Positions 11,266-60,849 of a DNA stretch of 60,849 nucleotides are shown here, one piece after another (the first letter of the stretch is position 1; each line of letters opens with the position of its first letter). The position numbers and the translations under genes are program-made. Location of the stretch: the IMG/VR virus record IMGVR_UViG_3300042452_000489, positions 1 to 60,849 of that record, one strand, 5' to 3'. This DNA is from a virus (lineage: Duplodnaviria > Caudoviricetes). The notes under the pieces are model-generated. The model saw only the letters and a list, made by a program, of their open reading frames with translations, was not told where the DNA came from and did not search any database.

Positions 11266-11274
11266 GTTGGTCCG

Positions 11275-11302
11275 GTTATAGCGGTTTTTCAGGGGGGTGC
11301 AA
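11275..11302 (-). promoter_or_regulatory. Sigma70-type promoter for the recombination arm
   Basis: TTGCAC-N16-TATAAC, flanked by the inverted repeat TGCCCGTTG (11261-11269) / CAACGGGCA (11300-11308). Confidence 0.55.
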
Positions 11303-11349
11303 CGGGCATCCTCCTGGCTGTACTCTCCCACCCGCCGGGAGTACTCACC

Positions 11350-12249
11350 ATGAGCATCACCGAGTTCGCACGTTCCTACTGGCGTAGGGTTGGCGGGAGC
11401 CCCGGCTACCTGGAGCAGCTCTTGGTTCTGACCAAGCGTCTGCCATGGCAGGCGTCCGACTTGACGCCCGACAACATCGACAACTACTTGGACAGCGCCT
11501 TGGAGCATCTCTCGCCCTCCACCGTGGCCAACCACAGACGCATGCTGCGGACGCTCATGCGGTTCGCCGCAGAGCAGGGTCACGTGGACAAAGATATAGT
11601 GAGGCCGCTCAGGAGAGTCAAGACCCCGGCCCCATGCCCAATCGCCTTGGACCATAGGCAGATAGCCCACTGGGTCAGCACAGCCAAGGCCATGCCCGGC
11701 GGCACGCTCACGTGTCCGTACAGGCTGCTGCTGCCGGCGTGGATTCTCACTGCCTACAGCACAGGCTTGCGAACAGGCGACTTGCTCGCGATCAGATACG
11801 ACCAAATCCGTGGTCACCGACTTCTCCTTAGTCAGCTCAAGACGTCAGAGCCGCATGTCGCGTGGCTTGACGACTCCGCCATTCTGGCGATTGAGTCCCT
11901 CCCTCGTCGCGGCCCGAAAGTCTTCGGATCGCTGACGAACAAGGACCGGATTTTACACGCGATGCGGCGGCTCGTCAAGCAAGCCGGTCAAGGCGGGACG
12001 ACGAGATGGCTCAGAAGAGCAGGGGCAACCTACTGTGAAGCCGCCGGGAAAGATGCCACTAGACACTTAGGACACAGGGATCCCGGCATGAAGAAGCGGT
12101 ACATCGACAGGCTGCTGCTGGCGGAGCTGACGGAGCATGGTCCGACCGCACCGCCAATCCCCGAGACGATGCTCAGAGGCCAGCCAGTTCCTCCAGCCGG
12201 TTCTGCTTCTTCCGCTCGCGAGCCCGCTGTGCCGCTTCGGACTGGATGA
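11350..12249 (+). CDS. Tyrosine recombinase / integrase
   Basis: SPSTVAN core-binding helix, TGLRTGD (Arg), QLKT (Lys), WLRR in place of HxLR, HLGH, RYI (Tyr); GGAG RBS. Confidence 0.88.
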   Translation: MSITEFARSYWRRVGGSPGYLEQLLVLTKRLPWQASDLTPDNIDNYLDSALEHLSPSTVANHRRMLRTLMRFAAEQGHVDKDIVRPLRRVKTPAPCPIALDHRQIAHWVSTAKAMPGGTLTCPYRLLLPAWILTAYSTGLRTGDLLAIRYDQIRGHRLLLSQLKTSEPHVAWLDDSAILAIESLPRRGPKVFGSLTNKDRILHAMRRLVKQAGQGGTTRWLRRAGATYCEAAGKDATRHLGHRDPGMKKRYIDRLLLAELTEHGPTAPPIPETMLRGQPVPPAGSASSAREPAVPLRTG

Positions 12250-15200: not shown

Positions 15201-15799
15201 TCGGCCCGGGCGGCCAAGTCGTTGATCTTGCCGAGCTGCTCGCGAGGCGTGGTGCGCCGCATGTACTCGCGGACACCGCTGATGCCCTTGGTGTCGGCGG
15301 CATCCAGGGCGACGTTGCGCAGAAGGCCCGATGCTTGGGCCGCCTTGCCCGCAGCCGTCTTAGCCCCTTGACCGAACAGGGCGCTGACGCCGAGCGTGCC
15401 GTAGGTCAGCGGGTCAAGAAGCACCTCCGCCGCCAAGCCGCCCGTGAAGTTGCTCCAATTGTCGTCCTCGCCGACGAGGTTGTACTGACGAAGCAGCTCT
15501 CGTCCGGTCACCCGGTCGTCGGACGAGCCCAAGAAACTCAGCGGCTTGCCAGCGAGGATGCCGCGAACCAAGGCGCCCGGGGTATCTAGGATGTACCCGG
15601 CAGTCGCCAGACCAGATGATCCGGCCTTGGCAAGCGCCTCAAGCATCCCGCCCTGCTCCTCCTCTGGCATGAGGTCGGAGATGCGAGGTCGCCGTTTGCG
15701 AATCGCGAACGGCTCTTCGTCCTCCAGCAACCCGAGGTCGGCAAGCTGCCTGACACGCTCGTCCGGATCGAAGATGTCGAACAGCGGGGACTGCGACAT
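12173..15799 (-). CDS. Large internal virion (DNA ejection) protein, about 1208 aa
   Basis: Last and largest gene of the structural arm; SPSFHTRN and PFYSFQK segments are typical of podovirus internal proteins. Confidence 0.7.
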   Translation of the reverse strand: MSQSPLFDIFDPDERVRQLADLGLLEDEEPFAIRKRRPRISDLMPEEEQGGMLEALAKAGSSGLATAGYILDTPGALVRGILAGKPLSFLGSSDDRVTGRELLRQYNLVGEDDNWSNFTGGLAAEVLLDPLTYGTLGVSALFGQGAKTAAGKAAQASGLLRNVALDAADTKGISGVREYMRRTTPREQLGKINDLAARAEAEKTLKSQFKRFGVGDEALDETMATFGDFRIPGTNIGFNYDLPFGGGDAVAKIGDALGNATRTTPIIGHAATWLSSAFDNRAGEYWSRDLETTNKIQSAARRAFRNADDELFADRLRLSKLQREALEASAPEFFPTSAGSLAGQAIPEELRSFGSQRLRQAMADWAEGGGVRPAAQQGPSLPSGLFYSSSRGSGDAMADWVMENIPEFRNVRDEFAGMGNYFNAVADSAGLPTTRWSSQQGTGWFPRQLHFFRKNAPPEGIKKNSPKAWGRDERLFGVRDNFGRPRQAYTDIPGGMRTFRQLTGNIDPRLDSVQLQKDLLGVSDDQVRGILDTAFNRIGIQSPYQPWIDDVTNSAAFQAADTAGQAKMLADVNQQIGGYYKQLADLLRSADTQFAANNRGIFDSDPWSNMVRYRAGQATNKANADELFRQLTQEAANTPADFVTGGTSIPLAEAAKTLGFDPNAFRRRWQSSMSADVTNFSVDEKAVEALKTLSPKTRLAMPERGLMGAVDQFTSAFKVGALASPSFHTRNAYSGAINAATHGAFNFRDMLAAGRASRGDYRAIAKRLRNAPGFENLTDEERIAKYLDFTGATQVTGGNVLDDITGAPESTMSGMFLGADKDTIAQRVGRAAYQPGRSWRQFANDMTSMRGVGFTQNPMRENTNPLLVLNDAVGQRVEDSLRGGVFLNQLRKGVDPRRAADISFLANVDYRPSSFTGFERGLKRVLPFYSFQKGILPSIATNLVERPGGLQSQLIRAVTRGTEPSADSFVPEYLRQSAAIPLPADLPGLLGGSGNEELKRYLTNVDLPWESTFQLFSPGVGASSSARLADSIRKTGSNILGMTNPLIKAPIEYITNRQLYSGRELSDLYSVLEQDLGPMGRPLEQAIVNFVPFGSRGLGLYRQATDDRLTTGEAMQKAAFNLLAGAKLTDVDQDRAKRLAARDMLNSILETTPGVRTYENLAVPDDVLANMPDEQKRLYLLYKIIQSEAAQRARERKKQNRLEELAGL

Positions 15800-17109
15800 C
15801 ACTCCCTCATCGGGTTGCTGCCGGACCAAGCGCTGGCAGCTCTGCGGCGGGCGATTTCGTCAACGATCCGCTGCGCCTTCCCGGCATCATAGCCGCGGAC
15901 GTTCACAAGGTAGTCCATGGTGCGCTGCTGCTCGTCAAGCGTAAAGGCAGTGGTGTTGCCCCACCACCCACTAGAGGAGTAGTTGGTTTTCACGTAGCTA
16001 TCGACTGCTGCCATCTCGGACGGGTGAATCTCTGGAGCATCGCGGTACTTGAGGGCACGCTCCTCTGTCGGCAGCTCAAGTTCGGCGGCAGCGATCTGCG
16101 CGTCAGCGAGCTTCTGCTTGGCCGGGTCGGGAACATTCCGCAGCATGGCCTGCACGGCACTGGATGCCATCACGCCAGCAGCCTCGGCATTGCGAGCATC
16201 CACGGCCGCCGCCATCGGGCCGGCAGGAGACATGTACATCAGGGCCCGGTCGCGGTCTTCGCCTTCCAGTTCATTGAGCATGTTGTAGGCGCCGCGGTTG
16301 CCAGAGTTGATGTTATGGCTTCCGCCGGCAAGCATGGCCGTGGCTCGCCACCGATCCGCGGCCTCGGTCTGTCGGCTATGCGAGCGATCCATAGACATCA
16401 GATTGAGTTGGGCCAGCGCTTGATCGGGGTTCTGCGCGAACATCCCGGCGACCTGAGTGGGCGCCAAACCAGTCATCTTGGCCCAGTGGTTGATCCGAGC
16501 CCTGTGCCGAGGCGAGATCAAGGGGGCGTTAGGGTTCTGGCCCGGCTCCGACCTTGCGCTCAAGGCGCCAGCCGCGCCGCCAACGTCAGGCTCCACGGCA
16601 ATGGGCGTGGCGGCAGCGTCAAGGTTGGGATCGTCGCCGTCAAAGTAGTCAATGATGGCGGGCGCAAAAGCGCCGAGCCCGAGAAGCCCCAGTCCGGTTG
16701 CCGCAACGCCCCACGGGAATCGCGGGTCGTCGGCCGCCTCGGGGCCGGGAAGACCGCGGCGGGCCGGGGCGCCGGGCAGATCACCGGGGTCGCGTGGCCT
16801 GTTAGGGATTTCGATAACAGGAGGCTCGCGACCGGGCGGAACAGCCAAGCCTCTGTCCGGTCTTGGGATTATGCCGCCGTCGCCGGGGGCCCCGGGAGGA
16901 GCGTTGCCCGGTGGGGGCGGAGGGCTTCCGCCAGAGGGAGGTGAGCCAGACAGGCCCGCCTGATCAAGAATCTGCCGCTGAACATGTGGCGGAAGGTTGC
17001 GGAAGGCCGGCGAGTTAATGTAGGCCCTCGCTGCAGCCGGGCTCATGCCGCTGATATTCGGGATGCGGCTCGGGGTAAGCCCGCCGGCGGCGCGTGCTGG
17101 ATTAGCCAT
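15799..17109 (-). CDS. Putative internal virion protein (starts MANPAR)
   Basis: GAGGAG RBS; Pro-rich N-terminal half and one hydrophobic helix; ejection-gene position. Confidence 0.6.
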   Translation of the reverse strand: MANPARAAGGLTPSRIPNISGMSPAAARAYINSPAFRNLPPHVQRQILDQAGLSGSPPSGGSPPPPPGNAPPGAPGDGGIIPRPDRGLAVPPGREPPVIEIPNRPRDPGDLPGAPARRGLPGPEAADDPRFPWGVAATGLGLLGLGAFAPAIIDYFDGDDPNLDAAATPIAVEPDVGGAAGALSARSEPGQNPNAPLISPRHRARINHWAKMTGLAPTQVAGMFAQNPDQALAQLNLMSMDRSHSRQTEAADRWRATAMLAGGSHNINSGNRGAYNMLNELEGEDRDRALMYMSPAGPMAAAVDARNAEAAGVMASSAVQAMLRNVPDPAKQKLADAQIAAAELELPTEERALKYRDAPEIHPSEMAAVDSYVKTNYSSSGWWGNTTAFTLDEQQRTMDYLVNVRGYDAGKAQRIVDEIARRRAASAWSGSNPMRE

Positions 17110-17118
17110 ATGCTCCTC

Positions 17119-18375
17119 TCAACCCGCCATGCGGGAGTTCTGTTCCTGATCCGCCATCGCGTGCAGGCGATTGATCTCGGCGATGATTCGCTGACGCTCC
17201 GCTGCGGTGACCGTGCCTTCGCTGGACATCATGTTGAGCTGCGCCATCAAAGCCCGAGCCCGACTGCGATAGTCGCTGCCGCGGTTGGCATCGGCCATGG
17301 CACTCGCCTGTGCGCGGATGGCACTGGTCTGACGGTTCTGCTGATCCACCGGCATGATGCCCGGCTGGCTACCAGTACGCCGGCCCTCGGCGGCTTTCTG
17401 GTACAGGGCATCCGCCTCGCGAGACAGCGCCGCGGACTCCGGAGTGATCCGGCCTTCACGCAGCTGGATCTCGTTGGCCTGCCGGATCCGCTCGCGAGCC
17501 ATGGCGGCGTAGTCGATGACCTCATCCTCGGCGGTCCCCACGGACGGGACAGGGCGGGACTCGTCAGCCAAGTCGGCAGTAGACTCCCCATCCTCGCCGA
17601 GGACGTCGATCTCACTGTCACCAAGGTTCCGTGCAGCCATCGCCGCAGCGCCGCCAAGAGCCGCAGCCCCCATGGCGGGATACATCCAGCTGCGACTCTG
17701 ACGACCGGGGGGGGCGGGGATGCCGGCCCGTCCACCACCACCGAGCTTGGGCTGGATGGTGAACTCGGCGTCGATGATGCCGTCGTCAAACGCACCAAGG
17801 CCACGCTCCTGACCGGCCAGCTGCCGCCAGCCTTCAGAAGCGCCGGGGGGAACCGACAGTCCGCGCTCGCCGCCGGCAGACAGCCCGCGCGACTCAGCCA
17901 TGGCAAGAGGGCCACCGCCGCTGGGGATCATGCCGCCCCGACGAACGCCTGGGCCTCCAACTCCGCCGACCGCCGAGCCTGGGCCACGCACGCCACCGAC
18001 AGGGACACCACCACCGCGGACGCCAAACGGAATCATGCCGCGAGTGTCCTCGCCCATGGGGAGTTCCATCTGGCGAGCGGGCCGTGCCCCCATGCCAAGA
18101 ACGTCAGCGTACTCAGGCTCCATGACAGCCGCAGCATTGGGCCCGCCCCGGCGCGTCATAGCCTCGCCCTTGCTGACGATCATCCGATAGGCGTCGAAGA
18201 TCGCCTCGTTATCGCCGTTTGCGATACGCGCCGCCAGATCGGGGTTGATGCGAGTCAGGCTATCCATGTTGGCGCCAACCAGCTTCAAGACCTGCCCGGG
18301 GATGGCCGGGTTGGCTCCGCTTGCCGGTCGCGTAAGCTGGCGAATGAAGTCCCCATACTTTTCGGCACTAGCCAT
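17119..18375 (-). CDS. Putative internal virion protein
   Basis: Gly-rich, hydrophobic MGAAALGGAAAMAA segment, helical C-terminus. Confidence 0.6.
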   Translation of the reverse strand: MASAEKYGDFIRQLTRPASGANPAIPGQVLKLVGANMDSLTRINPDLAARIANGDNEAIFDAYRMIVSKGEAMTRRGGPNAAAVMEPEYADVLGMGARPARQMELPMGEDTRGMIPFGVRGGGVPVGGVRGPGSAVGGVGGPGVRRGGMIPSGGGPLAMAESRGLSAGGERGLSVPPGASEGWRQLAGQERGLGAFDDGIIDAEFTIQPKLGGGGRAGIPAPPGRQSRSWMYPAMGAAALGGAAAMAARNLGDSEIDVLGEDGESTADLADESRPVPSVGTAEDEVIDYAAMARERIRQANEIQLREGRITPESAALSREADALYQKAAEGRRTGSQPGIMPVDQQNRQTSAIRAQASAMADANRGSDYRSRARALMAQLNMMSSEGTVTAAERQRIIAEINRLHAMADQEQNSRMAG

Positions 18376-18631
18376 TCTTCTTCCCCTTCTTCGGGACGTC
18401 GGCCAAGCCCTCACGCGGCATGTCGTCTTCGGTCACTTCGGGCGCGTTTGGCTTGCCGTGCATCTCCTCGTCCAGGTCGGCGAGGTCGTTCTTCTCGGGC
18501 TTGTTGAGCTGCGAGAGCAGCTTCTTCTCCTCGGCCTCGCTGGCACTGAGGAGGCGCTTCACAAACTTCTTCATCCCATCGCGGGTGAAGCCGTCAAGCA
18601 TTTCGTCCAGCTCAAAATCGATACGTGCCAT
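18368..18631 (-). CDS. Small charged protein
   Basis: MARIDFELDE..., 87 aa, coupled to neighbours. Confidence 0.65.
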   Translation of the reverse strand: MARIDFELDEMLDGFTRDGMKKFVKRLLSASEAEEKKLLSQLNKPEKNDLADLDEEMHGKPNAPEVTEDDMPREGLADVPKKGKKNG

Positions 18632-42478: not shown

Positions 42479-42758
42479 GGAGCGCTCCTTCCGGTGCAGG
42501 TGTGGAGTGCATCGCCATCAACTTGGCAAACGCCGCCGCCTCTTCCGGCGAACTAAATGATCCCAGCGACTGCCGCGAAGATTGCCACGCCGCCAACGCC
42601 TCGTCGTCCGACATCGTCCGACCGTCCGGCGTCAAGGTTTGTATCAGCAAAACTTCCCCGCTCGGGAGCGACAGCATCAGGGGCTTGCCGCTTGTGCTGT
42701 CCTCGCTCCACAGCTTCTCAAAGCCCATGGGCTGCATGTTTGATCGCGCAACGCCCAT
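42468..42758 (-). CDS. Hypothetical protein
   Basis: TGATG coupling; EVLLIQT...SDDEA...LGSFSSPEEA. Confidence 0.6.
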   Translation of the reverse strand: MGVARSNMQPMGFEKLWSEDSTSGKPLMLSLPSGEVLLIQTLTPDGRTMSDDEALAAWQSSRQSLGSFSSPEEAAAFAKLMAMHSTPAPEGALRGL

Positions 42759-43591
42759 CACTCTTCCCCCATGGCTGCGCCGGCCGCTATCGGAGCAAGG
42801 AGTCCGTACTTGCGGAGGATGCGGATGGAGTCTTCGGTGCCGGGAAACATCACGTAGTTGCGGGTGCCGCTGGCGCTGCGGCGCGAAAGCCCGTCCCAAT
42901 ATTGAATTCCTGGCACTCCTGCATTTCTAAGCTCAGAAAACACATCGAACGCCGCCTGCCTCCCTGCGGCGGCAGAGTGCCCCGCGAGCATCGGCCCTAT
43001 AGGGCCATTGAGATCGAAGTCTGGGCCTATCGTTCCGCCTTCGACTGCTGCATCAATCAAGCGCTCGTCGTCTATCACTGATCGCACGCGGTCGTTCTGG
43101 AGCGAAAGAGGCGCGTCATAATCCACCATGCTGGATGGCGAATGCGCTATTTCAACTTCGTACACGCGAGGCGGGGTTTCCAAGAACGGAAACTCTTTTG
43201 GAGTTATTGGCGCGCCAGAACGAAGCAGTTGCATTGCCTCTCTGAACATATTGCGACGAACGCGCGATCCTTTCCAAGAACCGTGGTCGCGCATTACCCT
43301 CATGGCCTCATCTGGAGTCTGATGGACAAACAGATAATCTGCGGCCATTTGCTCTGGTGATTGGTACTGCGGATGCAGTGGAATGTTCCTGTACTCTTCT
43401 GCCACTTTGGGGTTTTCGGCGAAATAAAGCCCCGGGCCATACGCCTGAGCGCCTTCGCCAGTGCCCATCTTGCTCGCATCAAACCTGTCGAAGTCATACG
43501 GGCTACCGTGGTACGCCCTGATGTACTGCGACTCTGGGGCTGATCGACCGACAGCAGCCAGGACGTCACTGAAGCGGGAGGGGTTAGCCAT
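42758..43591 (-). CDS. ADP-ribosyltransferase-fold protein of polyvalent-protein type
   Basis: AYHGSPYDFDRF...GEGAQAYGPGLYFAE...YEVEI...GIQY...NYVMF. Confidence 0.7.
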   Translation of the reverse strand: MANPSRFSDVLAAVGRSAPESQYIRAYHGSPYDFDRFDASKMGTGEGAQAYGPGLYFAENPKVAEEYRNIPLHPQYQSPEQMAADYLFVHQTPDEAMRVMRDHGSWKGSRVRRNMFREAMQLLRSGAPITPKEFPFLETPPRVYEVEIAHSPSSMVDYDAPLSLQNDRVRSVIDDERLIDAAVEGGTIGPDFDLNGPIGPMLAGHSAAAGRQAAFDVFSELRNAGVPGIQYWDGLSRRSASGTRNYVMFPGTEDSIRILRKYGLLAPIAAGAAMGEE

Positions 43592-45213
43592 CAGCGATCT
43601 TCCCCAGTCATCAGAAGCGGGGCCAGGACCGAAGCGCCAACACCCTGCTCAATGAGTCGGCGGCGCATTTCGTCGGACATGACCCCGCGGTAGATCGGCG
43701 GCGGCGATGACGATTGCGGGATGGCCTTGCGGGCGGCGTCCTGAACATCGCCAAGGTCGCGCAGCCGCTTATGGGCGGCATAGGCCGCAGATTGCTCTTC
43801 GGCCAGTCGCACCAAAAGAGGCATGTGCTGCCCAGCTGCCGCAGAGGCTTCGGCTGCGGAGAGCCCAGATCGACGCAGCTGGCTGGCGATTGCGGCTTGC
43901 AGCAATGTCCCCGCAGCCCCCACATGTTCCGGCCCGTCCGCAACGGCATTCACCAATACCGAAAACTGCGCTTGCGGCGCACGGGCGAATGCGGGGGCAG
44001 GGCCAGAGGGCTCTAGCGACCTTAAAACTTTGCGGGCCTCAACTGCCGGCCCGGTAAAGAAATCGGTTTGGTCCGCGATGGCGCCATAGCCCGGCACGGA
44101 AGCCTCGCCAGTGAAGGCTGCTTGCGATTGCGGGGCGGCATCCTCTACCAGCCCGCCCATCTTTCTGCCCAGTCGCTCCAAGGCGCCCTTCGCCACCTTG
44201 CCGTAAGCATGCTGGTAGTTCTCAATGTTGCCGCCGACCTTGTCGGCTATCGCCCTGGGGGATGCGATTTCGATGGCGCGGTGGCCCTTGCGTGCGGCCT
44301 CCAGGGCGAGGCGTTTGATGAGCAGGTCGGACCAAGCGTCTTCTAGGGGGAATGGAAGTTCCCTCTGCCCCGGCTCCCCAGAAACCACAAAGTCTCCATC
44401 GGGGCGGTAATCAACACGCCAGCCTGCTTCAATGACTCTCGCGACGTATTCTTCGTCAGTTTCGGACGGCAGTTGCTGCGGGGGCGGAAGGCTTGGCTCG
44501 GAGGCTGCCTCCCGCGCCTTCCGGTTGTGAATCCCTAAGTCCGACTGGAGTTCATTGATCCGCAGGGCGTCCCCGTGGGTATCGAAGCGGGCGTGGGCGA
44601 CGGCATCTTCGGCGGCGTCGGTGCTACTAGTTGCGGCGCGGCGCCAATGATTGCCGTATTCTCCTGCGCGGGCCCCTGGTTGCGTCAGCAGGATCTCGGT
44701 GTACCTATCGCCGCCTTGGCCGTAAGTGGCGTACTTTGGGTCGCCGTGAGCGCGGCCCTCACCGAGTCTGGATGCCTCGTCTTGATAGTCCAATACGCGG
44801 TCGGCCATGTAAGTCAGGCCACCGCCGCCGGGAACGGGCGCATAGCCTCGCTCCTGAATGACTGGCACATCGTCGGACAGCACAACCTCCTTGTGCGTGT
44901 ACACCGGGCTGCGTTCTTTGACTTGCCGCAAGAGTTCATCTCTCGGCACCACATCTCGGCCGGCGATGACCGAGTCTAGGTCAACCTCCCTCAACTCCCA
45001 GCCCGGGACGCCCTCCTTGTATCGCTTGATAAGCCCCGGGATCTCCTGCACTCGCACGTTGGCCGGCATGGCCTCAATGGCTCGCTCCAATCGCGAGTAG
45101 ATCCCAGGGCCGGGGTTGTACCCAAGAAGACCTGCGATGACGCGGCCGGCGTTGTCGGGATTAGCCGACACAAATTCCCTACTGAGGTCCGAAAGCCTGG
45201 AAGGGTTAGCCAT
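43591..45213 (-). CDS. Large-polyvalent-protein-type domain protein
   Basis: IYSRLE, YTEILLT, HW...AHARF...LRINELQSD, W-x-DL-x-x-KR motifs. Confidence 0.65.
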   Translation of the reverse strand: MANPSRLSDLSREFVSANPDNAGRVIAGLLGYNPGPGIYSRLERAIEAMPANVRVQEIPGLIKRYKEGVPGWELREVDLDSVIAGRDVVPRDELLRQVKERSPVYTHKEVVLSDDVPVIQERGYAPVPGGGGLTYMADRVLDYQDEASRLGEGRAHGDPKYATYGQGGDRYTEILLTQPGARAGEYGNHWRRAATSSTDAAEDAVAHARFDTHGDALRINELQSDLGIHNRKAREAASEPSLPPPQQLPSETDEEYVARVIEAGWRVDYRPDGDFVVSGEPGQRELPFPLEDAWSDLLIKRLALEAARKGHRAIEIASPRAIADKVGGNIENYQHAYGKVAKGALERLGRKMGGLVEDAAPQSQAAFTGEASVPGYGAIADQTDFFTGPAVEARKVLRSLEPSGPAPAFARAPQAQFSVLVNAVADGPEHVGAAGTLLQAAIASQLRRSGLSAAEASAAAGQHMPLLVRLAEEQSAAYAAHKRLRDLGDVQDAARKAIPQSSSPPPIYRGVMSDEMRRRLIEQGVGASVLAPLLMTGEDR

Positions 45214-55592: not shown

Positions 55593-55748
55593 GGAGACTC
55601 TCCATGGACACGGATGTCCCGATGGTTCTTGAGCTGGTGGTGGTGATCCTGAGACTCGTACTGGAGGTGATTCGATGAGCCCAGTGGAAGACTTCGCCCT
55701 TGCGGTAGTTGGTATGATTCTCTTGTTCACATGGCTTGCATGGAGCCC

Positions 55749-56537
55749 ATGATGGTCTACCTCTACGCACGTGTATCGACGGACAAGCAGGAGAACGGAC
55801 GCGAGGCACAGGTGTCTCGCCTGGAACAGTGGGCCCAGCAGAACAGCCTGATCCCTGATGGGTTGTTCTGCGACGACGGCGTGTCTGCCTTCAGCGTCCC
55901 GCTCAGGGATCGCCCCGAGGGCAGGAAGCTCTGGGATCTACTGGCACCAGGGGACACGGTCGTCATCACAAAGGTTGACCGTGCCTTCCGGTCTTGGCTG
56001 GATGCGGCCATGACCATTGAGACATGCCAGAAGCTGGGCATCAAGCTCCACGTTCTGGACATGCCGTTCGACATCTCCACCCCGCACGGCGAGTTCGGCC
56101 TGTCGATGGTCGTCGCCGCAGCTCGGCTGGAGTCTCGCCTCCACGGCCAGCGGAAGCGGGAGGTCTACCACCACAAGCGGGTGAGTGGCCTGCCCTACAA
56201 CCAGCTCCGTCCGTTCGGCTGGGTGTCCACCAAGGGCAAGACCGGGAAGCTGGAAGGCTGGGCCGAGTGCGAAGAGGAACGCGAGATCGGGGCTCGCATC
56301 CTGCAGCTGCGGGCCGATGGCATGAGCTACCCTAAGATCGCCCTCTACCTCTGCCGCGAAGGCGTGAGGAAGCCGCGTCGTCGGAAGGATTCATCCGGCT
56401 ACTACCACGTGCAGGACGTCTTTCTTCTGGCACGTGCGGCTTCAGCCGGATATCCAATTGTTCCGCGAGAGTTCTGGCAAGGGCCCGACTACGAACAGAG
56501 GCTGCGCGCAGCGAAACCTCATGCCCCTCAGATATAG
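55749..56537 (+). CDS. Serine recombinase (resolvase/invertase family) with a short C-terminal DNA-binding domain
   Basis: YARVSTDKQ (catalytic Ser), DDGVSA, RPEG, KVDRAFRS, PFGW, GMSYPKIA. Confidence 0.92.
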   Translation: MMVYLYARVSTDKQENGREAQVSRLEQWAQQNSLIPDGLFCDDGVSAFSVPLRDRPEGRKLWDLLAPGDTVVITKVDRAFRSWLDAAMTIETCQKLGIKLHVLDMPFDISTPHGEFGLSMVVAAARLESRLHGQRKREVYHHKRVSGLPYNQLRPFGWVSTKGKTGKLEGWAECEEEREIGARILQLRADGMSYPKIALYLCREGVRKPRRRKDSSGYYHVQDVFLLARAASAGYPIVPREFWQGPDYEQRLRAAKPHAPQI

Positions 56538-56958
56538 CCCGTAGCGTCTGGCCTTCAACGAACCTGTCCACGGCCAGCCGCTGCCACTCCTCGGGCAAAT
56601 CTTGGATGGCCATGCCAAGGAAGTCTGGGCTCTCAAGCAAGGGGAGCATGACCTCGGCCTCCTCCAGGCTGACCTTGAACTCGCCGGGCTGTCTGGTCAC
56701 CCGCTTGATGGACTTGTACATGGCGTTCATGATCGCCCGTGCGAAGTACGCCTTGGGGTAGGGCAGTCGCTTCGGGTCGTACGTGCGTGCGGCCTTGGTC
56801 AGGGCAAGGAATCCCTCGCCCTCAAGGTCAGGCAACAGGACGGCCTTCTGCCACGCCGGCCGGGACTGGACGAAGAACTTGGCCAGCATCCTGGCCAGCG
56901 GCGTGTACTCAGCCGCTAGTTCTTGACGTTTTTTTGAGAGCTTCAATCTCTTTTGCAT
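56332..56958 (-). CDS. Phage-encoded sigma-70-family factor
   Basis: Region 2-like DLEGEGFLALTKAARTYDP...YFARAIMNAM; region 4 HTH GQTLRAISEGHEVS. Confidence 0.75.
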   Translation of the reverse strand: MQKRLKLSKKRQELAAEYTPLARMLAKFFVQSRPAWQKAVLLPDLEGEGFLALTKAARTYDPKRLPYPKAYFARAIMNAMYKSIKRVTRQPGEFKVSLEEAEVMLPLLESPDFLGMAIQDLPEEWQRLAVDRFVEGQTLRAISEGHEVSLRAASVRSRALARTLAEQLDIRLKPHVPEERRPARGSSRMNPSDDAASSRLRGRGRGRS

Positions 56959-57139
56959 GTTCGTCCAGACGATGCTCATGTTCCGTGAGCGCTTGGCGGA
57001 GTTCCTCAACGATCTCTGGCAGGGACTCCACGCTGTTGGCAATCACCGCCACCTTGGCGTGAATGCTGAATGCCCACGGGACAATCGCACAGCCAGCCAT
57101 CAGTGCGAACGTCCAGACCTCCGTCTCAATCGTCATCAT
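56909..57139 (-). CDS. TM plus coiled-coil protein (holin/XhlA-like)
   Basis: N-terminal hydrophobic helix, then heptad repeat HEHRLDEHAKEIEAL. Confidence 0.6.
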   Translation of the reverse strand: MMTIETEVWTFALMAGCAIVPWAFSIHAKVAVIANSVESLPEIVEELRQALTEHEHRLDEHAKEIEALKKTSRTSG

Positions 57140-57353
57140 CCGCCTCCCGAATCATCTTCACCAGGATAATGCCGGCGTATGGATGCAGCCTGCCGTCTTC
57201 AACATGCAGCTTCACCACGCGAACGGCCTGCTCGGTTTGCTCGGGGAGGTACTGGTAGAGGTGAGTCTCGCCATCATATCGGGCGAGGACTCGGTTAAGG
57301 CGTCGAACGCCTCCGACCGAAGACGCTTCATATCCTTCCTGTTTATGATCCAT
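57126..57353 (-). CDS. Hypothetical protein overlapping the upstream gene
   Basis: Fills the operon slot; start uncertain. Confidence 0.45.
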   Translation of the reverse strand: MDHKQEGYEASSVGGVRRLNRVLARYDGETHLYQYLPEQTEQAVRVVKLHVEDGRLHPYAGIILVKMIREADDDD

Positions 57354-57475
57354 TTGGCGATCCAGTTGCTGACAAGGCTGATCAACACAGGCAGGACAAA
57401 GAGGGCGAAGAACGAGCCGCACTCGGGGTGCATCCGCAGGTAGGTTTCTTTCATCCGCCTGCGGTACTCACGCAT
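57212..57475 (-). CDS. Single-TM protein (start uncertain, may extend towards 57580)
   Basis: GSFFALFVLPVLISLVSNWIAKWII. Confidence 0.55.
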   Translation of the reverse strand: MREYRRRMKETYLRMHPECGSFFALFVLPVLISLVSNWIAKWIINRKDMKRLRSEAFDALTESSPDMMARLTSTSTSPSKPSRPFAW

Positions 57476-57576
57476 GCCGATGCTGCCGTCTGGCACCACC
57501 AGCAGGCCGACCAGGGCGATGTCTCTGGAGTGTTTGCTGATCCCTCTTGCCCCCGATTCGTAGAGGCAGAGGTCCG

Positions 57577-57828
57577 CTACTTCTTTGGCTTGCAGTCTAC
57601 GCACTCCTGCTTGAGGACAGACTTGGCCTTGCACTTGCACCCGGGTGGACACGGGCAGTCGGTCACATGCCCGTCGCCATGGACGATCTTGCCGTTCACG
57701 CACCGGCCGCAGCACACTTCCGGCAGAGGGGACTTCTGTGTGTGCAGGGTGTACGAAGCGTTGACTGCAACAGCGGACGAGTAGTCCGGAGAGGCCAGTC
57801 CCAAGAGAATCAGCAGTGTCTTACCCAT
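57577..57828 (-). CDS. Small Cys-rich protein with a hydrophobic N-terminus
   Basis: MGKTLLILLGLA...CCGRC...GDG...CPCPPGCKC. Confidence 0.65.
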   Translation of the reverse strand: MGKTLLILLGLASPDYSSAVAVNASYTLHTQKSPLPEVCCGRCVNGKIVHGDGHVTDCPCPPGCKCKAKSVLKQECVDCKPKK

Positions 57829-58771
57829 GCTGCAGTAACCCCACGGTTCCGTAATCGGGCAGGCGCTGCGGCGGGTAGCCGTCGATGCTGCCGTAGGTCC
57901 AGCAGTCCCCGTTGGACACGCACACATCGAAGTCATCAGCCGATGTGAGGATCATCCCTGGCACCCACTCGCCGTACTCCTTCGGCCAGCCGGAAGGCTT
58001 TTGGTTCCAGCGGCCCCAGCTGTTGGCGATCATCCACACGCGGAACGGGAAGAACTCCTTGGAGTCGTCATAGCCAACGATGGCCATGTCATGATTCCAC
58101 CCGCCGCTTGCCCGGCCGTGGATGCCCTTGGAGTTGGAGTCCGGAGTCCACGCAGCGTACTGCCCTGAGTGGGCGGCGTACCCATTGAACAGGGCATCCA
58201 TCAGATCGCCCTGCGTCCGGACGTTGCTGATGACGCCGACCTTGTTCTTCCGACAGAGATCCTTCACGTTCTCGGGAACGCCACCAAACCCCCAGCGAGA
58301 GCCGATGCTGGAGTTGTACTTGGTGAGATCGACCACGCCTTCGTAGTGCGTGCGTGCCAGGAACCCGACGTCACGCTCAAACTGCGAGGCCCTGGCCGGC
58401 GACATGCCCTCACCGCCGTGTCCGCGGGCACCGTAGGTTGGTTCGGTCGCCCCGAGCTTGAACCAATCCTCGGGTTCCTTCTTGACCAGAATCTCCACGG
58501 CCCGGGTGATATCCCTGGCGTTTCGACTTCCGTGGCTGACGCAGTCCCCAGTCGTTTGCGCTTCGGTAAAGCACTTGTCATCAAGCTTCTTGGCGTACTG
58601 CCAGAGCAAAGCCCGCTTGCCAATGCCAGAGCCTTTGATGTTCGGCTCGCTGAAGTACTGGTATTTCTGCGTGGAAAGGAACTCGTCCTTTGCCCGCGGG
58701 TCGAAGATGTATCCCGTCAGCCCGTCTTCGTAGGCGCGAAACAGGGAGTAGGGTGTGTCTAGCTCACTCAC
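57821..58771 (-). CDS. Papain-like (C1 / clan CA) cysteine protease
   Basis: Q-TTGD-C-VSHG (oxyanion Gln, Cys), WNHDMAIVGYD (His), IANSWG (Asn). Confidence 0.9.
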   Translation of the reverse strand: MSELDTPYSLFRAYEDGLTGYIFDPRAKDEFLSTQKYQYFSEPNIKGSGIGKRALLWQYAKKLDDKCFTEAQTTGDCVSHGSRNARDITRAVEILVKKEPEDWFKLGATEPTYGARGHGGEGMSPARASQFERDVGFLARTHYEGVVDLTKYNSSIGSRWGFGGVPENVKDLCRKNKVGVISNVRTQGDLMDALFNGYAAHSGQYAAWTPDSNSKGIHGRASGGWNHDMAIVGYDDSKEFFPFRVWMIANSWGRWNQKPSGWPKEYGEWVPGMILTSADDFDVCVSNGDCWTYGSIDGYPPQRLPDYGTVGLLQHG

Positions 58772-59195
58772 ACTGAGACTCCACAGCCCGAATGCCTGCG
58801 ACGATCTTGTCTGCAAGGATGCTGTCGATGGCTACGTTCTCCAGCGGGTAGTGCTTGGAGAGAACCTCTTCGACAGCCTCGTCCAGGTCGGGGTACTTCC
58901 CGACGAGGTCGGTTCCACCCACGGCCAGCCGCAGCGCATCGCTGTAGATGCTGCGCCAGATCGCGGTTGTAGCGATCAGGCGACCCGAGTCCCGTGCCAT
59001 GACATCAGCCAGCGCGCTGTAGACGCTGGCAATCTTCGCCCGGTCGGTGGAGGTGGCCGACTTCAGGGCGGTGGCAACTGGTCCCGTGGCGGCTGGCCGT
59101 GGGGAACTGACAAACGACGCCGCAACCAACAGGGTTGCGAGCGTGACCGGCAGGTACTGGATCAGCCCAGAAGGGCTTGGAGCAGCTGACTGCAT
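58764..59195 (-). CDS. Exported or membrane-anchored helical protein (start uncertain)
   Basis: Hydrophobic LPVTLATLLVAASFV, Pro linker, helical domain. Confidence 0.65.
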   Translation of the reverse strand: MQSAAPSPSGLIQYLPVTLATLLVAASFVSSPRPAATGPVATALKSATSTDRAKIASVYSALADVMARDSGRLIATTAIWRSIYSDALRLAVGGTDLVGKYPDLDEAVEEVLSKHYPLENVAIDSILADKIVAGIRAVESQCE

Positions 59196-59362
59196 GCGTC
59201 GATGACCTTCGGGCTGGAGGAACTTTCCTTGATCAGGATCACCTGTTCGATCTGCTTCATGGTGCTGGGCTTCTTGGCCTGGAGCTTGAGGTTCGGAAGA
59301 ACAAACTGCCCGAACAGCACCAGCCCGAGGACACCAAGAGAAATCATCTGGAATGTGGTCAT
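59162..59362 (-). CDS. Small single-TM protein, holin-like
   Basis: Same as 254-454. Confidence 0.6.
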   Translation of the reverse strand: MTTFQMISLGVLGLVLFGQFVLPNLKLQAKKPSTMKQIEQVILIKESSSSPKVIDACSQLLQALLG

Positions 59363-60321
59363 AGGATCTTGGCTCCTGGGATGAAGATGGTGACCCCGCC
59401 GACGCTCTGCGAGGCCGAGTAGTTGAGCAGCTTGTGCGGATCCAGAAGCCCCCAGCCATAGACGCTGTCATGACCAGCCTCCCCGGCATCACGGCATGTC
59501 TCACGCAACGCCTTGACCACGGACTTGTGGTCGATCTTCTTGCCCTGCTGCTTGGCGTCCGACGCCCAGAGGGCCAAGGCACCAGCGACAAAGGGCGCCG
59601 CCATAGAGGTGCCGCTGATGGTGGCGTAGCCATTGGCCAGCCACGTGCTGGTGATGTCGGCTCCTGGCGCAGCGACGACGATCTCCTTGCCGCGCGAAGA
59701 GAACTCGCAGGCAGAGCCGCTACGGTCCACGGCACCGACGCCAATCGTCTCTTGGAACGCGGCCGGGAAGTTGACCGCACCACCGTCGTTACCGGCGGCG
59801 CAGACGATGATCAGGCCCAGGCTGCAGGCGTGCTTAATCGCACGGTGCAGACCTTCGTCCGGCCGGGGGGAACCCAGCGACATGCAGATGATGTCGGCCT
59901 TCACATCCGCGGCGTAGGACACGGCAGCGGACACAGCCTTGTTGCTGCCCATGCCGCTGTGCCCCAGCACCTTCAGACCCAAGAGCTTGGCCTCGGGGGC
60001 GATCCCCTTGGCGAGGCCGGACCTCGCACCGATCACGCCAGCCACGTGCGTGCCATGGCCGAGCGTGTCCTCGTCGGATCCATCGGACGAGAAGTTGCGG
60101 TACTCGGCCACCGCATCGATCAGAGCCGTGTGCTTGGAGATCCCGCTGTCGATCACCGCAACCGTGACGCCGGCGCCCTTGGTCTGCTTCCACAGACTCG
60201 GGATTCCATACGACTCAACAGCCCAGTCCACACCGTCCTTGCCCGAGAGCGGGACAGCCCCGAAGTCAACCCGGTAAGGAGGCAGGTGAACGTAGTCACT
60301 CATCGGTGCCGAGAGTCTCAA
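59359..60321 (-). CDS. S8 subtilisin-like serine protease
   Basis: Same as 451-1413; full D/H/S triad. Confidence 0.95.
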   Translation of the reverse strand: MRLSAPMSDYVHLPPYRVDFGAVPLSGKDGVDWAVESYGIPSLWKQTKGAGVTVAVIDSGISKHTALIDAVAEYRNFSSDGSDEDTLGHGTHVAGVIGARSGLAKGIAPEAKLLGLKVLGHSGMGSNKAVSAAVSYAADVKADIICMSLGSPRPDEGLHRAIKHACSLGLIIVCAAGNDGGAVNFPAAFQETIGVGAVDRSGSACEFSSRGKEIVVAAPGADITSTWLANGYATISGTSMAAPFVAGALALWASDAKQQGKKIDHKSVVKALRETCRDAGEAGHDSVYGWGLLDPHKLLNYSASQSVGGVTIFIPGAKIL

Positions 60322-60628
60322 GCGTCATGAGAACGATGCGGAGCAGGGGCACCAAGACGTTGACGATGAACGTCCAGTCGAACCCGAGGGCCGAGTACTC
60401 CGACCCGAGGGCGAACGCCGTGACCGCCTCGTCCTCGGCGATATCCCAAGCGTACATGGCGCGGACGTCGTCGCTCTTCAGAACCGGGATCACCAGCCGG
60501 GCGATCTTGTCAACGATCTCCCACTGCTCCAGTGCCGGGAGGTCACGGCGAAAACCCTTCGCCACCTCCAGCACCTTGGTCAGAAGGTCGCGGTGAGCCA
60601 GCAGCCACTTCAGAACCTGCAGGTTCAT
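60296..60628 (-). CDS. Membrane protein with C-terminal hydrophobic helix
   Basis: Same as 1388-1720. Confidence 0.7.
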   Translation of the reverse strand: MNLQVLKWLLAHRDLLTKVLEVAKGFRRDLPALEQWEIVDKIARLVIPVLKSDDVRAMYAWDIAEDEAVTAFALGSEYSALGFDWTFIVNVLVPLLRIVLMTLETLGTDE

Positions 60629-60849
60629 GGTTTGTCCTCATGGTCAAGTACAGCGATCCCAACCACGGCGTGGCCGGCGATGTCCAACAGCGTGTCCCTA
60701 ATAGCAAATGTCTCCAAAGGCCCTCGGAGACGACGGCATTTCTCACCCACCCGGGCGACTTGGTATTTCCAGGGGACAATCCCGTCATCCTGCACCCCGA
60801 GGGCGTTGGACAGGGGGTTCTCCCGGCACCCGTAATACCCCCGCTTCCT

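What the first reader, a model, noticed from the sequence alone, without database searches (positions are those of the whole stretch)
56909..60628. Candidate protease-based lysis cassette: subtilisin plus papain-like protease plus membrane proteins, with no endolysin
Seen: nine tightly coupled genes encode an intact S8 serine protease, an intact papain-like cysteine protease, and six small proteins with TM or signal-like segments (one Cys-rich, one TM plus coiled coil). The block sits behind a late-promoter motif and far from the head genes. I recognise no amidase, lysozyme, transglycosylase or M15/M23 peptidase anywhere in the genome. Established: tailed phages normally lyse with holin plus a muralytic endolysin, and prohead proteases usually lie beside portal and capsid genes. 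Neither protease has an obvious signal peptide, as expected for holin-released enzymes. Inference: a lysis system that attacks a proteinaceous envelope (S-layer or the protein-rich wall of a planctomycete-like host), with the small proteins acting as holins, spanin analogues, adaptors or inhibitors.
Basis: partly seen in the sequence, partly recalled or inferred. Interest (0 to 1): 0.85.

Follow-up and report, generated by a model that had tools for sequence, protein, structure and literature searches.

The report
Phage protease cassette, probable lysis module
A phage of planctomycete bacteria has no recognisable cell-wall-cutting enzyme but carries a papain-like protease with two conserved helper genes, a trio found in hundreds of uncultured phages, which may be an undescribed way for phages to burst their hosts.

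Summary
The genes are real. The minus strand at 56909-60628 encodes an intact S8 subtilisin, a C1/papain-fold cysteine peptidase and six or seven small, mostly membrane or exported proteins. No muralytic family was found in 82 ORFs by Pfam or PHROGs. The late-promoter motif was not found.

The cassette is two separable modules.
- g4-g5-g6 (signal-anchored helical protein, C1 peptidase, Cys-motif exported protein) is an old phage trio. It is intact in 73-74 of 80 distant loci from AT-rich phages up to 244 kb, and is fused into one membrane-anchored protein in some lineages. In planctomycete prophages the g6-like gene encodes a lipoprotein.
- g1-S8 (an intracellular-type subtilisin with an invariant HLPPY N-terminus) also occurs in unrelated phages that lack the trio.

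Prophage copies in a Thermoguttaceae genome point to a Planctomycetota host.

None of 32 trio-carrying phage genomes passed the cut-off for any of 12 cell-wall-related families. A small, poor control set (0 of 5) was also negative, so this absence is not shown to be specific.

Best reading (about 0.5): the trio is the phage's endolysin equivalent. The substrate and the role of S8 are unknown. A "protein wall" rationale is not needed. The scan holds eight unchecked first-reader notes of this cassette in other genomes.

The parts
60296..60628 (-). g1, 110 aa: helical protein with a C-terminal hydrophobic segment; partner gene of the subtilisin (second copy at 1388-1720)
   Evidence: ORF. Hydrophobic window 80-107. 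No Pfam or PHROG family. Found upstream of S8 in 21 of 23 relatives. A homologous ORF lies directly upstream of distant S8 genes in unrelated phages (seen in L186, L190, L198 and L203; BLASTP against the L190 ORF E 5e-5).
59359..60303 (-). g2, 314 aa: S8 subtilisin of the intracellular (ISP) type, without signal peptide or I9 prodomain, with N-terminal HLPPY and a conserved C-terminal ..IFIPGAKIL tail (second copy at 451-1395)
   Evidence: PF00082 2.3e-49 and phrog_3677 6e-74. The best solved relatives are intracellular subtilisins (7y6m 1.4e-49, 2x8j 4e-42). HLPPY is invariant in 23 of 23 homologues. D52, H83, N172 and S233 are invariant in 10 of 10.
59162..59362 (-). g3, 66 aa: N-terminal transmembrane segment plus a short helical tail
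   Evidence: Found by tblastn in 18 of 23 relatives. Fused to g4 in L017.
58764..59195 (-). g4, 143 aa: signal-anchored helical protein with a conserved GKYP.L motif; first member of the trio
   Evidence: TM-like window 10-30. Present in 23 of 23 relatives. A g4-like ORF lies just upstream of C1 in 73 of 80 distant loci. It matches the N-terminal domain of fused long forms (hhalign probability 90%, E 1.5e-6). The AlphaFold model is helical with pLDDT 83 and has no PDB fold match.
57821..58771 (-). g5, 316 aa (GTG start at 58771, overlapping the g4 stop by 8 nt): C1/papain-fold cysteine peptidase; candidate wall-degrading enzyme
   Evidence: The family has 471 clusters at 90% identity, 1226 representatives at 50% identity with E<=1e-3, and at least 599 pattern matches in viral contigs.
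57577..57828 (-). g6, 83 aa: short signal-like N-terminus plus the Cys motif C-x2-C..GxIxHGDGHxTxCPC; third member of the trio
   Evidence: A g6-like ORF lies downstream of C1 in 74 of 80 distant loci. It matches the C-terminal tail of long forms (hhalign probability 91%, E 1.3e-6). In L029-L033 the homologue has a lipobox in 5 of 5 cases and a coiled-coil stretch.
57212..57475 (-). g7, 87 aa: single-pass membrane protein with a low-complexity tail
   Evidence: TM-like window 16-44. Found by tblastn in 18 of 23 relatives. No family match.
57126..57353 (-). g8, 75 aa (or 98 aa from GTG 57422): no TM segment; overlaps g7 by about 140 nt; status uncertain
   Evidence: Both overlapping frames give tblastn matches in relatives, so the true reading is unresolved.
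56909..57139 (-). g9, 76 aa: N-terminal TM segment plus coiled-coil tail; holin-like or i-spanin-like architecture
   Evidence: phrog_1296 'holin' E 4e-5, DUF7365 4e-4, weak XhlA and Rz-like spanin hits. Present in 21 of 23 relatives; the two misses are truncated loci. Proteins of the same architecture follow the trio in L030 and L033 and lie near it in 42 of 80 AT-rich loci.
56332..56979 (-). Neighbouring gene, not part of the cassette proper: phage sigma-70-family factor immediately downstream
   Evidence: PF04542 Sigma70_r2 1.3e-5 and phrog_351 4e-4. Present in 21 of 23 relatives.
58909..60849 (.). Terminal direct repeat of the record (equal to 1-1941); it duplicates g1, S8 and the start of g3/g4 in the window
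   Evidence: 1941 nt with 3 mismatches.

Best explanation
The block is the late or exit module of a temperate tailed phage of about 59 kb that infects Planctomycetota. It is built from two independent parts.

(1) The core is a three-gene unit: g4 (membrane-anchored helical protein), g5 (C1/papain-fold cysteine peptidase) and g6 (exported Cys-motif protein). I read this trio as the phage's endolysin equivalent. g5 would be made in the cytoplasm and reach the envelope when small membrane proteins of the block (g9, a TM plus coiled-coil protein; g7; perhaps g3) permeabilise the inner membrane. There it would work with g4 and g6, which are already outside, and cut a peptide bond that holds the wall together. 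That bond could be in peptidoglycan stem peptides or cross-links, or in a protein that tethers the envelope. In other lineages the same three parts form one polypeptide with its own N-terminal anchor, so export there needs no holin. In planctomycete prophages the g6-like protein is a lipoprotein with a coiled coil, which fits an outer-membrane or spanin-like step.

(2) g1 plus the S8 subtilisin is an accessory pair. The enzyme is of the intracellular-subtilisin type and is probably held inactive by its HLPPY N-terminus. Its role is open: helper protease in envelope breakdown, activator of the trio, or degradation of host proteins.

Shown: the gene content, the folds, the catalytic residues, the conservation and fusion patterns, the host phylum, and the absence of known muralytic families.
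Inferred: lysis, the compartment in which g5 acts in this phage, the order of events and the substrate.
For: - Fold and residues of g5.
- Not CHAP or NlpC: no such chain among the rows listed (ranks up to 50), and no Pfam hit.
- The trio is kept in 23 of 23 close relatives. In 80 distant viral loci it is kept in 73 (g4-like) and 74 (g6-like).
- Fusion evidence: hhalign g4 against long forms 90%, E 1.5e-6, and g6 against long forms 91%, E 1.3e-6. Among 149 representatives, 9 have g4-like fused N-terminally, 5 have g6-like fused C-terminally and 2 have both. Fifteen of 17 with 150 aa or more before the C1 domain start with a TM-like segment.
- g6-like proteins have a lipobox in 5 of 5 planctomycete prophage loci.
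- g9 gives a weak holin or spanin-type PHROG match and has the TM plus coiled-coil architecture. Proteins of the same architecture follow the trio in L030 and L033.
- In L030 the module sits between the replication genes and terminase/portal-like ORFs, which I named by eye.
- L033 has its own capsid-protease fusion (phrog_4523 5.6e-86), so C1 is not the prohead protease there.
- No muralytic family in 82 ORFs of the window.
- 0 of 32 trio-carrying records (29 at least 90% complete) pass the cut-off for Amidase_2, Phage_lysozyme, SLT, M23, Amidase_3, M15_4, CHAP, GH25, NLPC_P60, GH19, GH108 or PG_binding_1.
- BFVD fold neighbours include phage C1-fold proteins whose records are named 'Peptidoglycan binding-like' and 'N acetylmuramidase (Fragment)'.
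- Papain-family domains are already known in mycobacteriophage lysin A (N5 domain; PMC3314691, passages read).
- Host.
Against: - No experiment and no expression timing.
- g5 has no signal peptide in this phage, and S8 is of an intracellular type.
- The absence of known endolysins is not shown to be specific. Five records without the C1 gene (only one complete) were also 0 of 5 for Phage_lysozyme, Amidase_2 and SLT. GH19 and GH108 rang in no control genome.
- Most structural proteins of this phage also escape Pfam, so a divergent lysin could be hidden among the ORFans.
- C1-family enzymes normally cut proteins, not peptidoglycan (recalled).
- The protein is unusually conserved (58-86% identity across 23 loci), and inteins interrupt it in 43 of 149 representatives. 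That pattern is more usual for replication and packaging enzymes (recalled).
- In L033 the module lies between capsid and head-decoration genes.
- The holin and spanin assignments rest on architecture and weak E-values only.
- g9-type HMM hits were 0 of 80 in the distant loci.
Confidence: 0.5

Rival explanations
1. The proteases are not lysis enzymes. They would process or destroy proteins during infection: maturation of phage proteins, host takeover or nutrient release in the cytoplasm, or cleavage of envelope proteins for superinfection exclusion or receptor removal. Lysis would then be done by an unrecognised enzyme elsewhere in the genome.
For: - S8 is closest to intracellular subtilisins and keeps an ISP-like N-terminal motif.
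- Neither protease has a signal peptide.
- g5 is highly conserved and is an intein hot-spot.
- In L033 the module sits inside the head gene region.
- Much of the proteome is unannotated.
- The control set without C1 also lacks recognisable endolysins.
Against: - L033 has a canonical capsid-protease fusion.
- Fused relatives of g5 carry an N-terminal membrane anchor, and g6-like proteins are lipoproteins. This places the trio's action in the envelope rather than the cytoplasm.
- The trio is accompanied by small membrane proteins in very different phages.
- No candidate alternative lysin was found in 32 genomes.
Confidence: 0.3
2. One reading: both proteases together digest a proteinaceous envelope layer (an S-layer or the protein-rich planctomycete wall) in place of peptidoglycan hydrolysis. 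The whole nine-gene block would be one dedicated system for such hosts.
For: - The host phylum fits.
- There are two intact proteases and no muralytic enzyme.
- S8 and the trio are always together in the window's own phage group: 23 of 23 loci and 57 of 60 S8 loci at 49% identity or more, the 3 misses being truncated.
- The profile also gives a weak match (E 0.0014) to a solved C. difficile chain named a putative cell-surface-associated cysteine protease. That this enzyme processes the S-layer protein is recalled.
Against: - The two modules are separable. There is no S8 beside C1 in 10 of 14 genome loci or among the recurrent neighbours in 80 AT-rich loci. Seventeen S8 loci have no trio within 5 kb.
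- The trio is common in AT-rich phages and occurs in a Flavobacteriales assembly, hosts with ordinary walls (recalled).
- Planctomycetes do have peptidoglycan (recalled).
Confidence: 0.12
3. The trio is an outer-membrane or periplasm-spanning disruption device, a spanin-like last step or an envelope-remodelling complex. The peptidase would serve only to activate or release its partners. Wall degradation would be achieved otherwise, for example by blocking wall synthesis.
For: - g6-like lipoproteins with a coiled coil occur in 5 of 5 prophage loci.
- TM plus coiled-coil partners are present.
- g4 has a novel helical fold with no enzyme-like match.
Against: - The catalytic Q/C/H/W residues are invariant in 45 of 45 sequences, and the peptidase is the most conserved part of the block.
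- The window's own g6 has no lipobox.
- No inhibitor-type lysis gene is known for large tailed phages (recalled).
Confidence: 0.08

Closest known systems
Cysteine-peptidase endolysin domains of the papain superfamily (CHAP, NlpC/P60, and the N5 papain-like domain of mycobacteriophage lysin A; PMC3314691, passages read)
   Same: A phage-encoded Cys-His peptidase of the papain superfamily in a lysis-like gene context. It would cut peptide bonds in the wall. Some structural neighbours in BFVD come from records named for peptidoglycan binding or muramidase.
   Different: g5 is of C1 (papain/cathepsin) type, not CHAP, NlpC or C39 type. It has no fused cell-wall-binding domain. It always comes with two dedicated partner genes, or is fused to them. 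No activity has been shown.
C1A peptidases with an N-terminal pro-region: xylellain (3ois) and procathepsins B/L/K/X
   Same: Best fold matches (E 2e-8 to 1e-5, TM about 0.45-0.6). Gln/Cys/His/Trp active-site residues and an NSWG-like motif are present. About 65 N-terminal residues precede the catalytic core, as in zymogens.
   Different: Sequence identity is 11-18%. The Pfam C1 model is not reached (18.1-18.3 bits against 20.7). The Asn of the NSW motif is not invariant. The family is almost wholly viral (nearest Atlas clusters 91-96% viruses).
Intracellular subtilisin proteases (ISPs) of Bacillus and Planococcus (PMC6220982, passages read)
   Same: Best solved relatives of g2. g2 has no signal peptide and no large prodomain. 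It has a short N-terminal extension with L-P-P-Y at residues 7-10, where ISPs have the inhibitory LIPY/F motif at residues 6-9.
   Different: The second motif position is Pro, outside the published pattern [LVI]-[IFLV]-P-[YFH]. The gene is phage-borne, paired with a small partner gene (g1), and carries an extra conserved C-terminal tail.
Holin-endolysin-spanin cassettes and signal-anchor-release endolysins of phages of Gram-negative bacteria (recalled)
   Same: A run of small membrane proteins surrounds an enzyme without a signal peptide. There is a TM plus coiled-coil protein (i-spanin or holin architecture). Relatives have a lipoprotein partner (o-spanin-like) and enzyme forms with an N-terminal anchor.
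   Different: No member matches a curated holin or spanin family convincingly; the best is phrog_1296 at E 4e-5. The enzyme is a protease-type fold. There are two obligatory partner proteins. In this phage the position next to the terminase is not kept.

Membership tests
Peptidase S8 (subtilase) | Match to PF00082 above the gathering score | tested here: met
   168.7 bits against a cut-off of 21.8.
Peptidase S8 (subtilase) | Asp-His-Ser triad plus oxyanion Asn | tested here: met
   D52, H83, S233 and N172 are invariant in 10 of 10 aligned homologues. That these positions are the catalytic residues is my reading from the recalled motifs DSG, HGTH, GTSMA and GND.
Intracellular subtilisin (ISP) subgroup | No signal peptide or I9 prodomain; short N-terminal extension carrying [LVI]-[IFLV]-P-[YFH] | tested here: inconclusive
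   There is no hydrophobic N-terminus and the best PDB matches are ISPs. The motif is L-P-P-Y, invariant in 23 of 23 homologues. It fits 3 of the 4 positions of the published pattern.
Peptidase C1 (papain family) | Match to PF00112 above the gathering score | tested here: not met
   18.1-18.3 bits against 20.7. Only 3 of 45 family members give any weak hit.
Peptidase C1 (papain family) | Papain fold with Gln (oxyanion), Cys and His, plus Asn/Trp | tested here: met
   Foldseek top hits are all C1A enzymes. Q72, C77, H227 and W252 are invariant in 45 of 45. The Asn of NSW is replaced in 2 of 15 close homologues.
CHAP / NlpC-P60 peptidoglycan hydrolases | Match to PF05257 or PF00877, or nearest fold of that type | tested here: not met
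   No Pfam hit. None appears among the PDB fold matches listed.
Canonical endolysin (muralytic enzyme) anywhere in the genome | An ORF matching a known amidase, lysozyme, transglycosylase or M15/M23 family | tested here: not met
   82 ORFs were scanned against all of Pfam and PHROGs. The single 'endolysin' PHROG hit (phrog_873, E 3e-4) lies at profile positions 1033-1121 of 1277, in an ORF of set A3, which is the set that gave the ART-PolyVal hit.
Holin | Small membrane protein of a recognised holin family next to the lysin | tested here: inconclusive
   g9: phrog_1296 E 4e-5, XhlA 0.03. g1, g3 and g7 match no family.
Two-component spanin (Rz/Rz1 type) | Inner-membrane TM plus coiled-coil protein and an outer-membrane lipoprotein with a lipobox | tested here: inconclusive
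   g9 has the i-spanin architecture, with weak Rz-like hits (E 0.03-0.09). The window's g6 has no lipobox, but its homologues in L029-L033 have one in 5 of 5 cases.
Signal-anchor-release type endolysin | N-terminal membrane anchor on the enzyme itself | tested here: not met
   g5 has no hydrophobic segment. The feature is met only in fused relatives: 15 of 17 long forms.

The most novel reading that the evidence does not exclude
The g4-g5-g6 trio is a widespread, so far undescribed class of phage lysis enzyme. It would be a three-part (or fused, membrane-anchored) endolysin built on a C1/papain-type peptidase. It would have replaced every known muralytic enzyme in hundreds of lineages of uncultured phages, from 59-kb planctomycete phages to AT-rich phages of 130-244 kb. 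It would cut a wall or envelope bond that no known endolysin class targets.
Probability: 0.35. Interest if true: 0.85.

Novelty: new variant of a known kind. Interest (0 to 1): 0.7.

Why it matters
If the trio is the wall-breaking system, it adds a new catalytic class and a new multi-protein design to phage endolysins. It would explain how a large set of uncultured phages, including the barely studied phages of Planctomycetota, leave their hosts. It would also give annotators a marker for the 'missing endolysin' in many metagenomic phage genomes.

The family is large: 1226 clusters at 50% identity and at least 599 pattern matches in viral contigs. Three family members gave no match in 50,697 deposited phage genomes, so nothing about it has been tested at the bench.

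The family is also an unusual intein host. Inteins sit exactly at the catalytic Cys and His. This marks it as a gene the phages cannot afford to lose.

Tried and rejected
- phrog_873 'endolysin' (E 3e-4). The hit lies at profile positions 1033-1121 of a 1277-position polyvalent-protein profile, in ORF 42758-43591. That ORF belongs to set A3, which gave the ART-PolyVal hit. Rejected as a lysin.
- GH108 sub-threshold hits (3 of 32 records). The one I checked, in a window-family genome, is an Arg/Gly-rich out-of-frame ORF with no counterpart in the window. The other two were not checked.
- M15_4 sub-threshold hits (2 of 32). The checked one lies in an ORF that I read by eye as DNA polymerase III alpha-like. 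Rejected.
- NLPC_P60 sub-threshold hit (1 of 32, 15.1 bits, in a 906-aa ORF). Not followed up.
- Late-promoter motif: k-mer counts and the consensus scan found nothing recurrent.
- Complex prediction for g5 with g4 (residues 36-143): no verdict. It is not used as evidence either way.
- Fold search of the g4 model: no match with E<=0.001 in the PDB. My idea that g4 might be a known wall-binding or propeptide-like domain therefore has no support.
- Pfam on 10 long family members found no domain in their N-terminal extensions.
- PHROGs on 9 module proteins of the AT-rich phages and on 10 proteins of L030 and L033 gave no lysis family.
- tblastn of three family members against deposited phage genomes: no match. 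No annotated or cultured relative could be used.
- Control for the 'no endolysin' tally. Five records with a distant S8 but no C1 gene were also negative for 3 families. Only one of them is complete. The control does not show the base rate and weakens the argument from absence.
- Literature. Searches found no paper on lysis genes of planctomycete phages or on C1-type phage lysins. For those I saw listings and abstract starts only. I read passages of PMC10318531, PMC6220982 and PMC3314691. Supplementary files were not consulted.
- Earlier scan notes: eight first-reader notes of the same cassette in other genomes, none checked.

Full report
**What the record is.**
- The window is a 60,849-bp virus record that CheckV rates complete.
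- Its first 1,941 bases repeat its last 1,941 with three mismatches. The unit genome is therefore 58,908 bp, and the upstream end of the cassette appears twice (g1 at 1388-1720, S8 at 451-1395).
- GC content is about 0.61, and no tRNA gene is present.
- Pfam and PHROGs recognise the following among the other 72 ORFs: helicase, Erf, SSB, exonuclease, endonuclease VII, RusA-like resolvase, tyrosine integrase, serine recombinase, methyltransferases, terminase, portal, major head protein, and tail and baseplate proteins.
- Most genes run on the minus strand. The cassette follows the DNA-metabolism genes without a gap and is followed by a sigma-70-family gene.

**The observation.**
- Nine ORFs lie at 56909-60628 on the minus strand. 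Their junctions are overlaps or abutments of 4-34 nt, except a 101-nt gap before g7 and an overlap of about 140 nt between g7 and g8.
- g2 is a clear S8 subtilase (PF00082 E 2.3e-49). D52, H83, N172 and S233 are invariant in 10 of 10 homologues.
- g5 falls just short of the Pfam papain model (18.1 bits against 20.7). A confident AlphaFold model (pLDDT 93) finds only C1A peptidases among the PDB matches listed: xylellain and procathepsins B, L, K and X, from E 2.4e-8. Q72, C77, H227 and W252 are invariant in 45 of 45 diverse family members.
- No CHAP or NlpC/P60 structure appears in that list.
- Five small proteins have a hydrophobic segment. g6 has nine cysteines and a short signal-like start. 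g9 is a TM segment plus a coiled coil. g8 has none of these features and may not be a separate gene.
- I could not find the 'late-promoter motif'.

**No known endolysin.**
- All 82 ORFs were scanned against the whole of Pfam and PHROGs. No amidase, lysozyme, transglycosylase, M15, M23, CHAP or NlpC family appeared.
- The one 'endolysin' PHROG hit (E 3e-4) maps to the far end of a 1277-position polyvalent-protein profile, in ORF 42758-43591. That ORF belongs to the set that gave an ADP-ribosyltransferase (ART-PolyVal) hit. It is not a lysin domain.

**The C1 peptidase family is very large, viral and uncultured.**
- The search found 471 clusters at 90% identity and 1226 representatives at 50% identity with E<=1e-3.
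- At least 599 viral-contig stretches matched the search patterns, and 584 of them were confirmed by tblastn.
- The nearest Atlas clusters are 91-96% viral.
- Three family members gave no tblastn match in 50,697 deposited phage genomes.
- Pfam does not model the family: 3 of 45 members give a weak PF00112 hit.

**Two modules, not one.**
- In 23 close viral relatives, S8, g4 and C1 are present in 23 of 23. g1 is present in 21 of 23. g9 and the sigma gene are present in 21 of 23, and the two misses are loci that end before those genes.
- Farther away the picture splits. Of 14 loci in bacterial assemblies, only the four closest keep S8 next to C1. The other ten do not, apart from one E 0.009 fragment on the opposite strand in L030.
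- In 80 distant viral loci (median GC 0.34, contigs up to 244 kb), my profiles find a g4-like ORF just upstream of C1 in 73 and a g6-like ORF just downstream in 74. The g9 profile finds none. No S8 is among the recurrent neighbours, which are several other small membrane proteins. These include a TM plus coiled-coil protein in 42 loci.
- Conversely, S8 relatives at 49% identity or more always come with the trio: 57 of 60 loci, with three loci truncated. Seventeen more distant S8 loci have no trio within 5 kb.
- Four of those seventeen (L186, L190, L198, L203) keep a g1-like ORF directly upstream of S8. BLASTP of g1 against the L190 ORF gives E 5e-5.
- So g1-S8 and g4-g5-g6 are independent units that this phage group has joined.

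**The trio works as one machine, in the envelope.**
- Some family members are 500-800 aa long. Profile comparison places g4 on their N-terminal domain (probability 90%, E 1.5e-6) and g6 on their C-terminal tail (91%, E 1.3e-6).
- Among 149 representatives, 9 carry a fused g4-like domain, 5 carry a fused g6-like tail and 2 carry both. Fifteen of the 17 with at least 150 residues before the C1 domain begin with a TM-like segment.
- In planctomycete prophages the g6-like protein is about 180-200 aa long. It has a lipobox in 5 of 5 cases, the same Cys motif, a coiled-coil stretch and a basic tail.
- These fusions and export signals argue that all three parts act together outside the cytoplasmic membrane. 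In this window g5 itself has no export signal, so it would need a membrane lesion to get there.
- The g4 domain is a helical bundle (pLDDT 83) with no match among solved structures.

**Context.**
- In L030 the module (C1, lipoprotein, a 141-aa ORF, a 97-aa TM plus coiled-coil ORF) lies between helicase- and primase-like ORFs and terminase- and portal-like ORFs. I named these by eye. This is where lambdoid phages keep their lysis genes (recalled).
- In L033, integrated in a 0.9-Mb Thermoguttaceae contig, the module lies between a capsid-prohead-protease fusion (phrog_4523, E 5.6e-86) and a head-decoration gene (phrog_122, E 9e-17).
- That placement is odd for a lysis cassette. It does show that the C1 enzyme is not needed as the prohead protease.

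**Absence of endolysins in trio carriers.**
- I searched 32 whole virus records that carry the trio: 11 of the 59-kb group and 21 AT-rich records of 92-244 kb. Twenty-nine are at least 90% complete.
- None passed the cut-off for Amidase_2, Phage_lysozyme, SLT, M23, Amidase_3, M15_4, CHAP, GH25, NLPC_P60, GH19, GH108 or PG_binding_1.
- Five of the large records were also negative for M15_3, Lysozyme_like and Hydrolase_2.
- Of six sub-threshold hits, the two I checked were artefacts.
- Against this, my only control set was also 0 of 5 for three families. It consisted of five records with no C1 gene, only one of them complete. In addition, GH19 and GH108 rang in no control genome.
- The absence is therefore suggestive, but it is not shown to be specific to trio carriers.

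**The subtilisin.**
- Its best solved relatives are intracellular subtilisins.
- ISPs lack a signal peptide and carry a short N-terminal pro-peptide whose LIPY/F motif blocks the active site (PMC6220982, passages read).
- g2 has L-P-P-Y at residues 7-10, invariant in 23 of 23 homologues. The more distant phage S8s show LPP[YF]-like starts.
- This fits an enzyme made inactive in the cytoplasm. It does not reveal the target.

**Host.**
- Eight of 14 hits in species-representative genomes are in Planctomycetota assemblies: Pirellulaceae, Pirellulales, Planctomycetaceae and Thermoguttaceae.
- Two of these are in contigs of 0.9 and 5.5 Mb, so they are integrated prophages rather than binning errors.
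- The other six hits are in bins of other phyla on short contigs. One Flavobacteriales contig (GC 0.34) carries the AT-rich type of g6. This suggests that the AT-rich phages infect other hosts.

**Reading.**
- The most economical account is that the trio is the exit enzyme system of these phages, and that g9 and g7 provide the membrane step.
- Papain-superfamily lysin domains have precedent (CHAP, NlpC, and mycobacteriophage N5). Some phage C1-fold proteins in BFVD come from records named for peptidoglycan binding or muramidase.
- What is new is the C1 type of the enzyme, its two obligatory partners, its fusion variants, and its spread in uncultured phages.
- I put lysis by the trio at about 0.5, a non-lytic processing or takeover role at 0.3, the protein-wall version at 0.12, and a spanin-like, non-degradative role at 0.08.

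**Inteins.**
- Forty-three of 149 representatives carry at least one insertion of 120 aa or more: 30 insertions at the catalytic Cys, 10 directly after the catalytic His and 9 elsewhere.
- In L020 and L024 the insert starts right after ..TTGD and ends in ..VHN before the catalytic Cys.
- Precomputed Pfam marks PF14890 on two such proteins and PF05203 on one of them. I recall these accessions as intein-splicing and homing-endonuclease families.
- This marks a gene under strong constraint, and it is a curiosity in its own right.

**Earlier notes.** The scan holds eight first-reader notes describing the same cassette in other genomes, all unchecked. They agree with the observation and did not change my reading.

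Noticed in passing
window 1-1941 and 58909-60849: A 1,941-bp terminal direct repeat with 3 mismatches near its inner end. The record is classed 'linear' by its source, yet it looks like a complete, terminally redundant or circularly permuted genome of 58,908 bp.
   Followed up: partly
L020:4577-6723, L024:4577-6723 and proteins P0205-P0353: Intein hot-spot in a protease. 43 of 149 family representatives carry large insertions. Thirty are exactly before the catalytic Cys, 10 are right after the catalytic His, and some proteins have two or three. The L020 and L024 insert has LAGLIDADG-like motifs (by eye).
   Followed up: partly
window 57126-57475 (g7/g8) and 1717-2636 (three ORFs upstream of g1): Pairs or triplets of ORFs overlap by 140-190 nt in different frames, and every frame gives tblastn matches in relatives. 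Wrong starts, overprinting or programmed frameshifting were not distinguished.
   Followed up: no
L186, L190, L198, L203, about 6000-7050 in each: In unrelated GC-rich phages the g1-S8 pair is followed by a ~330-350-aa exported protein with a C-x-x-C-H motif. By eye it looks like a di-haem cytochrome c peroxidase. This is an odd neighbour for a phage protease.
   Followed up: no
window 42758-43591 (-): A 277-aa ORF next to the 540-aa ORF at 43591-45213 is the only ORF that touches an 'endolysin' PHROG (phrog_873). The hit lies at the far end of that 1277-position profile. The ORF belongs to the set that gave an ART-PolyVal (ADP-ribosyltransferase) Pfam hit.
   Followed up: partly
window 55731-56537 (+) and 56332-56979 (-): The serine recombinase gene and the sigma-factor gene converge. 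Their open frames overlap by about 200 nt. The phage also has a tyrosine-integrase-family hit (PF00589) somewhere in 1717-18414.
   Followed up: no
proteins P0257 and P0285 (C-terminal tails): Two long fused forms of the C1 peptidase end in a segment with a C-P-P-C motif. By eye this looks thioredoxin-like, which hints at a redox step in the envelope.
   Followed up: no
window 56332-60628, 20 nt upstream of each start: By eye I saw no clear Shine-Dalgarno-like purine run before most candidate start codons of the cassette. Most genes are joined by overlapping stop and start codons.
   Followed up: no
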